Positions 6,770-22,998 of a DNA stretch of 64,000 nt are shown one piece after another. This DNA is from Octopus vulgaris. Lineage: Eukaryota. The DNA lies in assembly GCA_951406725.2 (NCBI GenBank), contig OX597828.1, positions 41,974,001 through 42,038,000 of the forward strand. The letters run 5' to 3'. The notes beneath the pieces were generated by a model. It was given only the letters and a program-made list of their open reading frames with translations, ran no database searches and was not told the DNA's origin. The stretch's first letter is position 1. Every line of letters starts with the position of its first letter. Position numbers and translations under genes: made by a program.

Positions 6770-7400
6770 CAAAAGTGCATCATCCTTGTATAAACCTCCT
6801 CCTATTTCTGGGAGTTCCTTATACAAGCAGAATAAAATGTATATCCCTACTATGTCTGTGCAGAGTCTGTCAATCCCGTAATTATATCAAACATTTCTGG
6901 TCTATCTTTTCTCACCCAGTACTTTCCCTCAAATTTTATTTCCTAGCCGCTAAAATAATGTCTACTTCTACTCTAGTAAGTGTTGAGTTTTTCATAGCAA
7001 CCATGAGCACATTATTTGAGAGGATAGGATTAAATAAAGCATAATAGTTAGATATGTTTATTTGCATGAATCTTGTCTTATTTTTGTCAGGGGTTTTAGT
7101 AAATCAGTCAATTACCTCATTTGAACTTGCCTGTAGTTTAAGGTTAATGGCATTCCTAAATGTGGTTATGTACTTATCTATGATAAACTTACTTATCCTA
7201 CTAAGTTTCCATTTAGAAGGACAAATGAGTCTAACAGTAGGGTTAGTGTAAAAGTTAGGTTTATGGTCCTTAAGATTAATTCTAGAGGTTTTACACTCGT
7301 AAGGTTCGATTTTATCTGTTAAATTATATTTTTCCATAATACATTTAACTTGCAGGTTACGTTGTGTAAGGGTGTTAGGATTCGTGACTTCATAATTTTT
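6770..7400 (-). pseudogene. Decayed Penelope-like element (PLE) reverse transcriptase fragment
   Basis: KDHKPNFYTNPTVRLICPSK..LSRISKFIID...NEVID*F...KTRFMQINISNYY, then FDIITG..DSAQ and YKDDAL. These follow PLE RT motifs, with stops and frameshifts. Confidence 0.8.
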
Positions 7401-18693: not shown

Positions 18694-19676
18694 CGCAACA
18701 AAAATAAAACAAAATAATAATAGAAAACAAAAACGAAATAATAAAACGAATAAAAATGTACGGAAACAGAAATTTAAAAAACAACAACAATACTATGATT
18801 TGAAATTAAATAATTAAATAATTTGTATAGATTTATTTCACAAAGTTGGGTATGAGTGAGAAAGAGGGAGGGGCAGAGGGGCGAGGTAAATGCTAAAAGA
18901 GAGAGGAGAGACGGAGAGGGAGAGAGACAGAGCGGGTGTAAGAGAATGGAGCGTGGGCGGGAAGAATGAAGAGGAGGAAGAAGCGGAAGAGAAAGAGAAG
19001 AGAAGATTGAAATAAATATGGTGAGAGCCAGACAGAGGAAGAAGGAAGAGAAAGAAGAGCAAGGAGAGAAAAACTATGTGTGTGTGTGTGTGCAATGGAA
19101 ACAGAAGGAATTGGAGAGGTTGAAGAACAGACAATAGATGAGGAGGAGGGGGATTATACGGACAGACAGACGAACAGACAGAGAGATTAAAATGTTTTGA
19201 CTAAAATCTAGAAGAAAAGAAATGTGGAATTAGCGTCTTAATGCGAATTACCGTGACGAAACATTGCCTGTACACATGTACGCATGTATGTATGTATGTA
19301 TGTAAGTATATATGTATGTATGTGTATGTATGTATGTATGTGTGAATGTGTATTTATGTATGTATATATGTATGTATGTATGTATGTATGTACGTATGTA
19401 TGTGCGTGTATGTATCTATATATGCAGGTATGTGTGTATGTATGCATGTACGTATGTGTGAGTTTGTGTATGTGTGCATGTGTATGTGTATATGTATATA
19501 GATATAAATATATATATATATATATATAAAATAAATATAAGAGAGTGGTCACTATATTGATCACTCTAGCACCAGTTAATCCAAAAGGTTTCAACCACGA
19601 AAAATACATGTTTCCCATGAAAGCCAGTACGACTGTTAGCTCACACGGACAGGACAAATAAAAAATAACAAAAATA

Positions 19677-19770
19677 CAGATTATTTTGGGACAATTGTTT
19701 CGCTATTAATGAATTAAATGTAATATTACCTACAATAATCCATTTGTAGCTCTTCAGCCAAGACTATCTG
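19677..19770 (-). ncRNA. Type I hammerhead ribozyme, array unit 1
   Basis: Reverse complement of the motif at 21796-21889. Confidence 0.88.
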
Positions 19771-20210
19771 GATGAAATCCACTCAATCACACGCCAGATT
19801 TTACCATAACGATAAATACGCGTGCGGTTCAATTGATTACATCGGACGTTATAATTCAAATGCCCCAACCAACAGCGCGCCAAACTCTCACGGAAAACAA
19901 ATACAGCATTTAGAAATAAATGCAGCATAATTATAATTAATTAATAAGGGTGAGAGAATTAGATACTAATTTAATAGTATATCTATTCCACACCAAGTGG
20001 CCTAGTGCTACGAGAAACCTGGATTATTATAATATTTTATAATATATTATAATATTTTCACAAAATAAATATAAGAGAGTGGTCACTATATTGATCACTC
20101 TAGCACCAGTTAATCCAAAAGGTTTCAACCACGAAAAATACATGTTTCCCATGAAAGCCAGTACGACTGTTAGCTCACACGGACAGGACAAATAAAAAAT
20201 AACAAAAATA

Positions 20211-20304
20211 CAGATTATTTTGGGACAATTGTTTCGCTATTAATGAATTAAATGTAATATTACCTACAATAATCCATTTGTAGCTCTTCAGCCAAGACTA
20301 TCTG
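20211..20304 (-). ncRNA. Type I hammerhead ribozyme, array unit 2
   Basis: Identical motif, offset +534. Confidence 0.88.
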
Positions 20305-20744
20305 GATGAAATCCACTCAATCACACGCCAGATTTTACCATAACGATAAATACGCGTGCGGTTCAATTGATTACATCGGACGTTATAATTCAAATACCCC
20401 AACCAACAGCGCGCCAAACTCTCACGGAAAACAAATACAGCATTTAGAAATAAATGCAGCATAATTATAATTAATTAATAAGGGTGAGAGAATTAGATAC
20501 TAATTTAATAGTATATCTATTCCACACCAAGTGGCCTAGTGCTACGAGAAACCTGGATTATTATAATATTTTATAATATATTATAATATTTTCACAAAAT
20601 AAATATAAGAGAGTGGTCACTATATTGATCACTCTAGCACCAGTTAATCCAAAAGGTTTCAACCACGAAAAATACATGTTTCCCATGAAAGCCAGTACGA
20701 CTGTTAGCTCACACGGACAGGACAAATAAAAAATAACAAAAATA

Positions 20745-20838
20745 CAGATTATTTTGGGACAATTGTTTCGCTATTAATGAATTAAATGTAATATTACCTA
20801 CAATAATCCATTTGTAGCTCTTCAGCCAAGACTATCTG
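20745..20838 (-). ncRNA. Type I hammerhead ribozyme, array unit 3
   Basis: Identical motif, offset +1068. Confidence 0.88.
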
Positions 20839-21278
20839 GATGAAATCCACTCAATCACACGCCAGATTTTACCATAACGATAAATACGCGTGCGGTTCAA
20901 TTGATTACATCGGACGTTATAATTCAAATGCCCCAACCAACAGCGCGCCAAACTCTCACGGAAAACAAATACAGCATTTAGAAATAAATGCAGCATAATT
21001 ATAATTAATTAATAAGGGTGAGAGAATTAGATACTAATTTAATAGTATATCTATTCCACACCAAGTGGCCTAGTGCTACGAGAAACCTGGATTATTATAA
21101 TATTTTATAATATATTATAATATTTTCACAAAATAAATATAAGAGAGTGGTCACTATATTGATCACTCTAGCACCAGTTAATCCAAAAGGTTTCAACCAC
21201 GAAAAATACATGTTTCCCATGAAAGCCAGTACGACTGTTAGCTCACACGGACAGGACAAATAAAAAATAACAAAAATA

Positions 21279-21372
21279 CAGATTATTTTGGGACAATTGT
21301 TTCGCTATTAATGAATTAAATGTAATATTACCTACAATAATCCATTTGTAGCTCTTCAGCCAAGACTATCTG
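21279..21372 (-). ncRNA. Type I hammerhead ribozyme, array unit 4
   Basis: Identical motif, offset +1602. Confidence 0.88.
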
Positions 21373-21795
21373 GATGAAATCCACTCAATCACACGCCAGA
21401 TTTTACCATAACGATAAATACGCGTGCGGTTCAATTGATTACATCGGACGTTATAATTCAAATGCCCCAACCAACAGCGCGCCAAACTCTCACGGAAAAC
21501 AAATACAGCATTTAGAAATAAATGCAGCATAATTATAATTAATTAATAAGGGTGAGAGAATTAGATACTAATTTAATAGTATATCTATTCCACACCAAGT
21601 GGCCTAGTGCTACGAGAAACCTGGATTATTATAATATTTTATAATATATTATAATATTTTCACAAAATAAATATAAGAGAGTGGTCACTATATTGATCAC
21701 TCTAGCACCAGTTAATCCAAAAGGTTTCAACCACGAAAAATACATGTTTCCCATGAAAGCCAGTACGACTGGCGTGTGATTGAGTGGATTTCATC

Positions 21796-21889
21796 CAGAT
21801 AGTCTTGGCTGAAGAGCTACAAATGGATTATTGTAGGTAATATTACATTTAATTCATTAATAGCGAAACAATTGTCCCAAAATAATCTG
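21796..21889 (+). ncRNA. Type I hammerhead ribozyme, first inverted unit
   Basis: CAGAUAGUCUUGG-CUGAAGA(21809-15)-GCUA..AAUGGAUUA...UAAUUCAUU..UAGC-GAAA(21865-68)-C-AAUU-GUC^(21876)-CCAAAAUAAUCUG. All core nucleotides are canonical. Confidence 0.9.
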
Positions 21890-22329
21890 TATTTTTGTTA
21901 TTTTTTATTTGTCCTGTCCGTGTGAGCTAACAGTCGTACTGGCTTTCATGGGAAACATGTATTTTTCGTGGTTGAAACCTTTTGGATTAACTGGTGCTAG
22001 AGTGATCAATATAGTGACCACTCTCTTATATTTATTTTGTGAAAATATTATAATATATTATAAAATATTATAATAATCCAGGTTTCTCGTAGCACTAGGC
22101 CACTTGGTGTGGAATAGATATACTATTAAATTAGTATCTAATTCTCTCACCCTTATTAATTAATTATAATTATGCTGCATTTATTTCTAAATGCTGTATT
22201 TGTTTTCCGTGAGAGTTTGGCGCGCTGTTGGTTGGGGCATTTGAATTATAACGTCCGATGTAATCAATTGAACCGCACGCGTATTTATCGTTATGGTAAA
22301 ATCTGGCGTGTGATTGAGTGGATTTCATC

Positions 22330-22424
22330 CAGATAGTCTTGGCTGAAGAGCTACAAATGGATTATTGTAAGGTAATAGTACATTTAATTCATTAATAGCG
22401 AAACAATTGTCCCAAAATAATCTG
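22330..22424 (+). ncRNA. Type I hammerhead ribozyme, second inverted unit
   Basis: Same motif. The two differences (a 1-nt insertion and T>G) are confined to the tip of stem II. Confidence 0.88.
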
Positions 22425-22735
22425 TATTTTTGTTATTTTTTATTTGTCCTGTCCGTGTGAGCTAACAGTCGTACTGGCTTTCATGGGAAACATGTATTTT
22501 TCGTGGTTGAAACCTTTTGGATTAACTGGTGCTAGAGTGATCAATATAGTGACCACTCTCTTATATTTATTTTGTGAAAATATTATAATATATTATAAAA
22601 TATTATAATAATCCAGGTTTCTCGTAGCACTAGGCCACTTGGTGTGGAATAGATATACTATTAAATTAGTATCTAATTCTCTCACCCTTATTAATTAATT
22701 ATATATATATATACATATATATATGCATATATATA

Positions 22736-22841
<106 letters not shown>

Positions 22842-22844
22842 GTG

Positions 22845-22998
22845 AAGGGGCAATGGCCCAGTGGTTAAGGTAAGGCAGCGGACTCGCGGCCGTAGGATCG
22901 CAGTTTCGATTCCCAGACCGGGCGTTGTGAGTGTTTATTCAGCGAAAACACTCCACGAGACTTCAGCAGTGGTTGGTGCCGAACCCTACTGTACTCTT
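22845..22998 (+). mobile_element. Short tRNA-derived SINE inside (TA)n
   Basis: A box tggcccagtggttaag and B box gtttcgattccc. Confidence 0.6.

What the first reader, a model, noticed from the sequence alone, without database searches (positions are those of the whole stretch)
19528..22700. 534-bp tandem array with an intact hammerhead ribozyme in six units: candidate cephalopod retrozyme/circRNA locus
Seen: the non-coding 534-bp units are near-identical. Six carry a canonical type I HHR with CUGAAGA, GAAA and GUC^. Stem I is 13 nt (CAGAUAGUCUUGG/CCAAAAUAAUCUG with mismatches), stem II is unusually long (about 49 nt), and stem III is a tiny palindrome (ACAAUUGU). Known: tandem genomic repeats with type I HHRs (newt satellite 2, Schistosoma Sm-alpha, metazoan non-LTR retrozymes described by Cervera and de la Pena) are transcribed, self-cleave to monomers and circularise. 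HHRs with palindromic stem III, typical of Penelope-like elements, cleave as dimers, which a tandem transcript allows. Inference: this locus could yield 534-nt linear or circular RNAs mobilised in trans by a Penelope-type RT. The unit is longer than the metazoan retrozymes I recall, and I know of no description in octopus, though I cannot verify novelty.
Basis: partly seen in the sequence, partly recalled or inferred. Interest (0 to 1): 0.92.

Follow-up and report, generated by a model that had tools for sequence, protein, structure and literature searches.

The report
Octopus ribozyme retroelement with two-ended insertions
This is one insertion of a young, non-coding jumping element carrying a self-cutting RNA; its copies across the genome are built the same way, as two back-to-back runs of repeats that end at two fixed points, which suggests how such elements are copied from a small RNA circle by an enzyme borrowed from Penelope-type transposons.

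Summary
The six hammerhead motifs and the cut site after 21876 are real, but this is not a simple tandem array. It has two arms joined 5'-to-5': 4.2 units on the minus strand and 1.75 on the plus strand, inserted in (TA)n. It belongs to a very young dispersed family (479 exact ribozyme 22-mers, roughly 130 loci) in an Octopus-like genome. In 55 loci examined, 91 of 93 outer ends fall at two fixed sites, about 160 (A) and 292 (B) nt after the cut. Of 38 two-armed loci, 36 pair A with B and none pairs A+A or B+B. Both arms share the locus haplotype (63 of 64 sites), while 49 loci hold 33 haplotypes. Best reading: a non-LTR retrozyme inserted by a Penelope-type RT that primes both target strands at two internal RNA sites and copies one circle repeatedly. 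Autonomous Hydra-clade elements here show the same two-end rule, but no partner was identified by sequence. Cleavage and circles are untested, and Rfam finds nothing. The class is known; I found this insertion anatomy in none of the papers I read. The scan noted a similar anatomy in another genome (unchecked).

The parts
19528..21771 (-). Left arm, 2244 bp = 4.20 units in ribozyme sense on the minus strand; its RNA-3' end is site A (unit position 162 after the cut), abutting (TA)n
21769..22703 (+). Right arm, 935 bp = 1.75 units; its RNA-3' end is site B (unit position 292), abutting (TA)n
21769..21771 (.). 5'-to-5' junction of the two arms, 3-nt overlap CTG (unit positions 55 and 427)
21796..21889 (+). 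Type I hammerhead, 49-nt helix II, palindromic helix III, predicted cut after 21876
22330..22424 (+). Type I hammerhead, helix II variant (+1 A, T>G), predicted cut after 22411
21279..21372 (-). Type I hammerhead, predicted cut after 21292
20745..20838 (-). Type I hammerhead, predicted cut after 20758
20211..20304 (-). Type I hammerhead, predicted cut after 20224
19677..19770 (-). Type I hammerhead, predicted cut after 19690
20758..21291 (-). One cut-to-cut monomer, 534 nt, 33% G+C, strongly self-paired (MFE -152.8 kcal/mol, z -6.45, 0 of 100 shuffles as stable); the predicted circle
22039..22168 (+). One internal copy of the ~130-nt stretch between site A (ends 22038) and site B (ends 22168), the equivalent of the PLE 'tail'; holds a hairpin with a CCA loop that is kept in diverged cousins
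   Evidence: PLE tail from PMC11167929 and PMC8557442
19489..19527 (.). Left (TA)n target microsatellite
22704..22841 (.). Right (TA)n target microsatellite

Best explanation
The locus is one insertion of a young non-autonomous non-LTR retrozyme. Inferred cycle: read-through transcripts of an arm self-cleave at the hammerheads (probably as dimers) to 534-nt monomers, which are ligated to circles. A Penelope-like (most likely Hydra-clade) RT-endonuclease cuts both strands of AT-rich DNA, usually (TA)n, about 14-15 nt apart. Each 3' end primes reverse transcription at one of two fixed internal sites, one strand at A (~+160) and the other at B (~+292), never both at the same site. Each RT runs round the same circle for 0.1 to 7 turns. 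The two cDNA ends are then joined 5'-to-5' at an arbitrary point with little or no overlap; when only one arm survives, a plain tandem array results. Shown: dispersion, youth, two fixed ends, A+B pairing, target preference, target duplications, haplotype sharing between arms. Inferred: transcription, cleavage, circularity, rolling-circle copying, and the identity of the RT.
For: 55 loci: 91 of 93 outer ends at A (158-167) or B (286-297); 38 two-armed loci, all head-to-head, 36 A+B, 0 A+A, 0 B+B, 2 with one atypical end (0.5^36 = 1.5e-11 if sites were chosen independently and equally). In the 24 loci that the exact 22-mer lists on contigs C1 and C2, 14 of 14 two-armed loci are A+B. Target duplications of 14 and 15 nt at the 2 two-armed loci outside (TA)n (L032, L068). 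Arms agree at 63 of 64 informative sites in 27 loci, while only 31 of 1176 locus pairs share a haplotype (33 haplotypes in 49 loci). 99 substitutions are fixed in all units of a locus (20 private), against 61 single-unit ones in 102,375 bp and 11 partial rows; a toy simulation gives fixed variants under monomer copying and none under linear-multimer copying. L045 has a 3-nt change destroying the GUC triplet at the second junction of both arms, as expected for a dimer circle that a dead junction forces (one case). L193's arms stop at +1 and +4 after one junction each. Contigs of runs from three other studies show (TA)n loose ends at exactly A or B (X4 at 21130, X6 at 19932, X9 at 21534). Autonomous Hydra-type elements here (RWK, DKT, CxCX5C motifs of PMC8557442 section 11; ORFs of 941-1090 aa) carry the same kind of ribozyme, and 8 of 9 head-to-head pairs have one short (+34-38) and one long (+149-161) end. 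PMC11167929: a purified PLE protein cuts and extends both strands and starts at two internal RNA sites that bound the tail.
Against: No cleavage, circle or strand data: no run is on record as RNA and all laid runs are contigs. No autonomous element with significant sequence similarity to the unit was found among the families examined (profile E>=0.16 against the Hydra family and 0.055 against the Neptune family). Arm lengths are negatively correlated (rho -0.61, n=33; -0.65 in 13 census loci), which fits two primers sharing a finite linear RNA; ascertainment explains it only partly (simulated P 0.003-0.33). 8 of 93 5' ends lie at +1 to +15 (2.6 expected, p=0.005, post hoc), so some templates were linear or nicked at the cut. 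L062's short arm disagrees with its long arm at position 131. Three partial variants lie in adjacent units (L034, L041, L048), suggesting some DNA-level duplication. PMC11167929 saw no strand difference in start site in vitro and found ribozyme cleavage unnecessary for insertion.
Confidence: 0.68

Rival explanations
1. Same PLE-driven, two-site, two-strand insertion, but the template is linear: uncleaved multimeric transcripts, or cleaved monomers with exact end-to-end template jumps. The circle, if it exists, is a by-product.
For: Negative arm-length correlation; excess of 5' ends just after the cut site and none at positions 507-534; PMC11167929 reports unprocessed RNA as the dominant substrate in vitro; uncleaved multimers cannot be told from circles in contigs.
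Against: 219 of 223 unit junctions read carry the locus's own exact junction, and the 4 others fall in two loci, so jumps leave no scars. 20 private substitutions are fixed across whole arrays, including 4 in all 6 copies of both arms of this locus. Total lengths reach 7.3-8.0 units while the longest arm seen is 7.07. The linear toy model loses length and fixes nothing (it keeps no long-lived master loci).
Confidence: 0.2
2. Insertions are short PLE-type events (about one unit per arm) and the arrays grow afterwards at the DNA level by slippage or unequal exchange, the satellite-birth model discussed in bioRxiv 10.64898/2026.07.22.740005.
For: A few variants shared by adjacent units (L034, L041, L048); homogeneous arrays are also what concerted evolution gives.
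Against: Single-unit variants outnumber shared partial ones 61 to 11 rows and only 2 of 59 recur; the least diverged loci already hold 4-7 units per arm; diverged cousins (60-76% identity) match over about one unit or less, the opposite of growth with age.
Confidence: 0.09
3. Assembly artefact or local fold-back duplication of a satellite.
For: Inverted, highly repetitive structure inside microsatellites; PLE structures are known to trouble assemblies (PMC8557442).
Against: The same two ends recur at 55 loci on many contigs, with target duplications and locus-specific haplotypes; contigs of other studies show the same A and B junctions.
Confidence: 0.02

Closest known systems
Metazoan non-LTR retrozymes (Cervera and de la Pena 2020, PMC7229834; review PMC7761336; Li, Clavereau, Pollet, bioRxiv 10.64898/2026.07.22.740005)
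   Same: Non-coding, low-G+C repeats with one type I hammerhead per unit, dimers to multimers, coexisting with PLEs; rolling-circle reverse transcription by a PLE was proposed.
   Different: In the text I read, no head-to-head arms, fixed ends, target duplications or haplotype test is described; helix II here is 49 nt; no cephalopod is mentioned in the main text of PMC7229834 (its supplement could not be read).
Penelope-like elements, Hydra clade (Craig et al. 2021, PMC8557442)
   Same: Hammerhead present, (TA)n targets, partial tandems, an inverted 5'-truncated copy, and a tail often at one end only.
   Different: No ORF; the tail is ~130 nt against the 30-40 bp given for PLEs; arms are multimers of a 534-nt unit. 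The paper's metadata file lists Octopus only under Naiad in the 2 of 4 'octopus' rows shown.
Poseidon element PAc of Anolis in vitro (Frangieh et al. 2024, PMC11167929)
   Same: Both strands cut and extended, AT-rich target, two internal RT start sites bounding the tail.
   Different: No difference in start site between strands was seen in vitro; here the two strands use complementary sites in 36 of 36 classifiable two-armed loci.
L1 twin priming
   Same: Both target strands prime on the RNA, giving a head-to-head inversion with a short-overlap junction and a target duplication.
   Different: In L1 the second site is variable and the two segments do not overlap on the RNA; here both sites are fixed and both arms appear to copy the same template region.
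Non-autonomous Chlamys elements such as MRC1 (passage in PMC8557442)
   Same: Non-autonomous PLE derivatives with multicopy head-to-tail insertions.
   Different: They resemble their autonomous families at the 3' end; this unit has a hammerhead and no partner identified by sequence.

Membership tests
Metazoan non-LTR retrozyme | Tandem repeats with a type I hammerhead in each unit | tested here: met
   within each arm the units are head-to-tail
Metazoan non-LTR retrozyme | Non-coding, G+C below 45-50%, no LTR structure | tested here: met
   33% G+C; no frame of 120 aa or more wholly inside the array; anatomy
Metazoan non-LTR retrozyme | Dispersed copies showing mobility | tested here: met
   479 exact ribozyme 22-mers, 0 control; 55 loci read; target duplications
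Metazoan non-LTR retrozyme | Match to an Rfam hammerhead model | tested here: not met
   the long helix II is a likely cause (inference). The published searches I read used descriptors (RNAmotif, rnabob), not Rfam scores
Metazoan non-LTR retrozyme | Transcribed | tested here: inconclusive
   the unit is covered in 4 of 4 laid runs guessed to be RNA, depth to about 1000 in X4, but none is on record as RNA
Metazoan non-LTR retrozyme | Self-cleavage and circular RNA | not testable with these tools
   folding only: the ribozyme-compatible fold of the circle is 1.3 kcal/mol above the minimum
Penelope-like element insertion signature | Two internal start sites (tail at one end), inverted 5'-truncated copy, AT-rich or (TA)n target | tested here: met
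Autonomous Penelope-like element | RT plus GIY-YIG ORF | tested here: not met
   no ORF in the unit; tblastn of two PLE proteins finds nothing inside the array
Derivative of a named autonomous PLE family of this genome | Sequence similarity of ribozyme and tail to that family's terminal repeat | tested here: inconclusive
   no significant blastn match to one Neptune family, the main Hydra family or five other families; profile hits fall on the Hydra ribozymes but at E 0.16-4; thousands of PLE candidates were not examined

The most novel reading that the evidence does not exclude
A Penelope-type RT dimer engages one RNA circle asymmetrically: one subunit always primes at site A and the other at site B, each on its own target strand, and both then roll round the same circle. 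The hammerhead cut is the bottleneck that makes the monomer the unit of inheritance (a cleavage-dead junction is passed on with period two, as in L045). This would be genomic proof of rolling-circle retrotransposition of an animal circular RNA, and would explain PLE inverted repeats and one-sided tails as one obligate two-primer reaction rather than self-priming. The excess of A>G among inherited variants (9 of 36 against 2 of 61 single-unit ones, Fisher p=0.002, post hoc) might mean that edited RNA is written back into the genome.
Probability: 0.45. Interest if true: 0.82.

Novelty: new variant of a known kind. Interest (0 to 1): 0.63.

Why it matters
How animal retrozymes integrate, and why Penelope-like elements leave tandem and inverted structures with a tail at one end, are both stated as open in the papers read (PMC7229834 Discussion; PMC8557442 section 15; PMC3846280 proposes self-priming; bioRxiv 10.64898/2026.07.22.740005 says the mechanism remains to be elucidated). 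This family is young enough (0.06% single-unit divergence) and short enough to be read end to end. It gives exact predictions: two named start sites, complementary use by the two strands, a 14-15 nt stagger, and multimeric cDNA from a 534-nt circle. Intact candidate enzymes lie in the same genome, so the in vitro assay of PMC11167929 can be applied directly. As a retrozyme alone, it would be an ordinary new member.

Tried and rejected
Rfam: no hammerhead hit; the weak hits are (TA)n or fold-back matches. Tandem Repeats Finder misses the array because its longest period is 500. Free folding of the isolated ribozyme (106 nt) does not give the hammerhead fold (z -2.3). Partner search: the young 781-aa Neptune family (17 loci, L100-L116) has no ribozyme core that my patterns found and no match to the unit; the PLE fragments next to L065, L117, L141 and L163 look like independent neighbours; flanks of five further intact families (778, 842, 838, 722, 727 aa; 15 stretches, output partly cut) gave only a 26-nt AT-rich match. 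The search for homologous proteins with 'longer' found nothing (weak). Pfam does not recognise the Hydra-type protein. ARAGORN finds no tRNA in the window. The sigma-70 promoter scan is irrelevant to a eukaryote and was at chance level. A>G against T>C among inherited variants shows no strand bias (9 vs 7, p=0.18), so editing is not shown. Literature searches that found no description of this family or anatomy; the library lacks most subscription journals and Repbase, the supplement of PMC7229834 was unreadable, and bioRxiv supplements are closed.
Full report
Observation. The window (G000:C15:41974001-42038000, a 2.8-Gb genome) holds 534-bp units between 19528 and 22703. Six hammerhead cores are present as described, with the cut after 21876 for the first plus-strand copy. 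Rfam does not recognise the ribozyme. It is supported instead by 4560 matches of a core pattern against 15 for the reversed control and by covariation in 20 related ribozymes (9 of this family and its cousins, 11 from PLEs): stem I position 2 shows five pair types, and stem II positions 2 and 3 pair in 20 of 20. The monomer folds far better than shuffles (z -6.45). Host: proteins 84-85% identical over the matched part to this genome's PLE RT are named Octopus sinensis, so an Octopus host is inferred.

Family. The unit has 238 matches in 40 scored of 847 candidates. An exact ribozyme 22-mer occurs 479 times, control 0; contigs C1 and C2 hold 87 of these in 24 loci, which extrapolates to about 130 loci (my arithmetic). 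I read 55 loci: the window, 39 others (biased towards similarity and at least one full unit) and 15 from the pattern lists. Numbering from the first base after the cut, 91 of 93 outer ends lie at A (158-167) or B (286-297). 38 loci have two arms, always head-to-head; 36 are A+B, none A+A or B+B, and 2 have one atypical end (L039, L065). 17 loci have one arm (10 B, 7 A). In the C1+C2 census 14 of 14 two-armed loci are A+B. Internal junctions fall across the unit, mostly with 0-6 nt overlap (28 of 38). Nearly all ends abut (TA)n; the two two-armed loci outside it have 14- and 15-nt target duplications (L032, L068). Cousins about 61% identical keep both sites, and L152 and L153 are again A+B. Contigs from three other studies show (TA)n loose ends at A or B, which argues against an assembly artefact.

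Template. For variant calls I dropped arms under 80 nt or 95% identity, 12-14 terminal bases per arm, all but the first arm of L069 and the third piece of L046. At positions covered by three or more units, 99 substitutions are fixed in a whole locus (33 distinct, 20 private), 61 are single-unit in 102,375 bp (59 distinct) and 11 rows are partial. Arms agree at 63 of 64 informative sites in 27 loci; 49 loci hold 33 haplotypes and 31 of 1176 pairs are identical. This locus has four private changes in all six copies on both arms. So each insertion passes through a one-unit bottleneck and both arms come from the same haplotype. A toy simulation reproduces this with monomer copying and not with linear multimers (it has no persistent masters, so it is illustrative). 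219 of 223 unit junctions carry their locus's exact junction. L045 has a cleavage-triplet change at the second junction of both arms, which fits a dimer circle forced by a dead junction; L048 has a stem I change at junctions 3 and 4 of 4, which does not fit a simple period. Against a pure circle model: arm lengths are negatively correlated (rho -0.61, n=33 without L046, L069, L194; simulated ascertainment gives P 0.003-0.33); 8 of 93 5' ends lie at +1 to +15 (2.6 expected, post hoc p=0.005, though another 20-nt window holds 9); and L062's short arm disagrees at one site.

Enzyme. The genome has many PLE families (6136, 8660 and 29092 first-look candidates). A young 781-aa Neptune-type family shows no match. 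A Hydra-type family, placed by the RWK, DKT, CxCX5C, CxxC and CxH motifs listed in PMC8557442 section 11 (no tree built), has intact 941-1090-aa frames, a ribozyme with a 57-60-nt helix II and the same or a compensated helix III palindrome, (TA)n targets and two ends about 120 nt apart; 8 of 9 head-to-head pairs use one of each. Sequence similarity to the unit is not significant, and five other families gave none. The partner is therefore a candidate by anatomy only.

Mechanism. Shown: mobility, two fixed ends, their complementary use, target duplication, haplotype sharing. From the literature: a purified PLE protein cuts and extends both strands and starts at two internal RNA sites that bound the tail (PMC11167929); retrozymes are expressed as circles and were proposed to be copied to tandem cDNA by PLEs (PMC7229834, PMC7761336). 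Inferred: cleavage to monomers, ligation, two primers on one circle, rolling-circle copying, 5'-5' joining. I put this at 0.68, a linear template at 0.2, DNA-level growth at 0.09, artefact at 0.02. Expression is unresolved: no run is on record as RNA, although the unit is covered in 4 of 4 laid runs and a contig of depth about 1000 in X4 spans the cut site.

Comparison and novelty. It works like a non-autonomous PLE and meets the sequence criteria of metazoan non-LTR retrozymes; the RNA criteria could not be tested. Unit length is not unusual (51-972 bp in bioRxiv 10.64898/2026.07.22.740005). Inverted copies and one-sided tails are known for PLEs (PMC8557442, PMC3846280). What I did not find in print is a cephalopod retrozyme, PLE-type two-site ends on a retrozyme, the strict A+B rule, or a haplotype test of rolling-circle copying. 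What I saw of each paper: the 2026 preprint, parts 1-3 of 5 (abstract to back matter; supplements closed); PMC11167929, parts 1-3 of 4 and a term search of 3 supplements with no hits; PMC8557442, passages, sections 11 and 15 and a term search of the metadata file; PMC7229834, passages and Discussion (supplement unreadable, and it could list cephalopods or insertion details); PMC4209133, PMC3846280 and PMC7761336, passages only. L1 twin priming is recalled. The scan's own notes hold no look-alike of this sequence and one unchecked report of PLE-type tandem insertions of a tRNA-like unit in another genome, seen after my reading was formed.

Verdict. Interest 0.63; new variant of a known kind.

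Noticed in passing
L100-L116 (e.g. G000:C6:112992900-113002899): Young Neptune-type PLE family with a 781-aa RT + GIY-YIG frame (many copies 97-99.5% identical), a unit of about 4.7 kb and what looks like an upstream reading frame ending near a T-run, a possible frameshift site; no hammerhead core found by my patterns.
   Followed up: partly
L180-L187, L150 (e.g. G000:C6:134009000-134017000): Hydra-type PLE family with asparagine-rich inserts and intact 941-1090-aa frames; 8 of 9 head-to-head pairs have one short and one long end; a tail of about 120 nt. Its relatives are annotated in Octopus proteomes under unrelated names.
   Followed up: partly
L200-L214: At least five more PLE families with long open frames (778, 842, 838, 722, 727 aa), some with other hammerhead types (a minimal one in the 727-aa family).
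   Followed up: partly
window 21130-21283 (run X4, record 12): A contig of depth 6 running from (TA)n into site A with 10 substitutions, 9-10 listed as A>G on the antisense strand; looks like A-to-I hyper-editing of read-through RNA, for which the inverted arms would supply long duplexes. One contig; RNA status guessed.
   Followed up: no
family-wide: Inherited variants are rich in A>G and T>C (16 of 36) while single-unit variants are rich in C>T and G>A (26 of 61): editing, RT error, selection on structure or mispolarisation.
   Followed up: partly
site A junctions, e.g. L197, L045, L036, L191: Short repeated AT-rich pieces between the element end and the target (a 9-nt duplication in L197) suggest slippage or re-priming at initiation; 20 of 44 A ends are not followed directly by five pure TA units.
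   Followed up: partly
L117:500-2600: A 594-bp tandem repeat whose unit appears to be an inverted pair from a diverged cousin family, nested in the (TA)n end of a Hydra-type element; probably DNA-level duplication of a two-armed insertion.
   Followed up: partly
window 22845-22995: A short interspersed repeat with a tRNA-like head just right of the insertion; a similar copy lies in L203. ARAGORN does not call it.
   Followed up: no
window 6770-7394 (-): Decayed fragment of a Neptune-type RT, 42-57% identical to the 781-aa protein; unrelated to the array.
   Followed up: no
genome-wide: Several further long-helix-II hammerhead families with the same helix III palindrome (e.g. L120, L127, L164, L165) were not characterised; some may be other retrozymes or the missing partner.
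   Followed up: no
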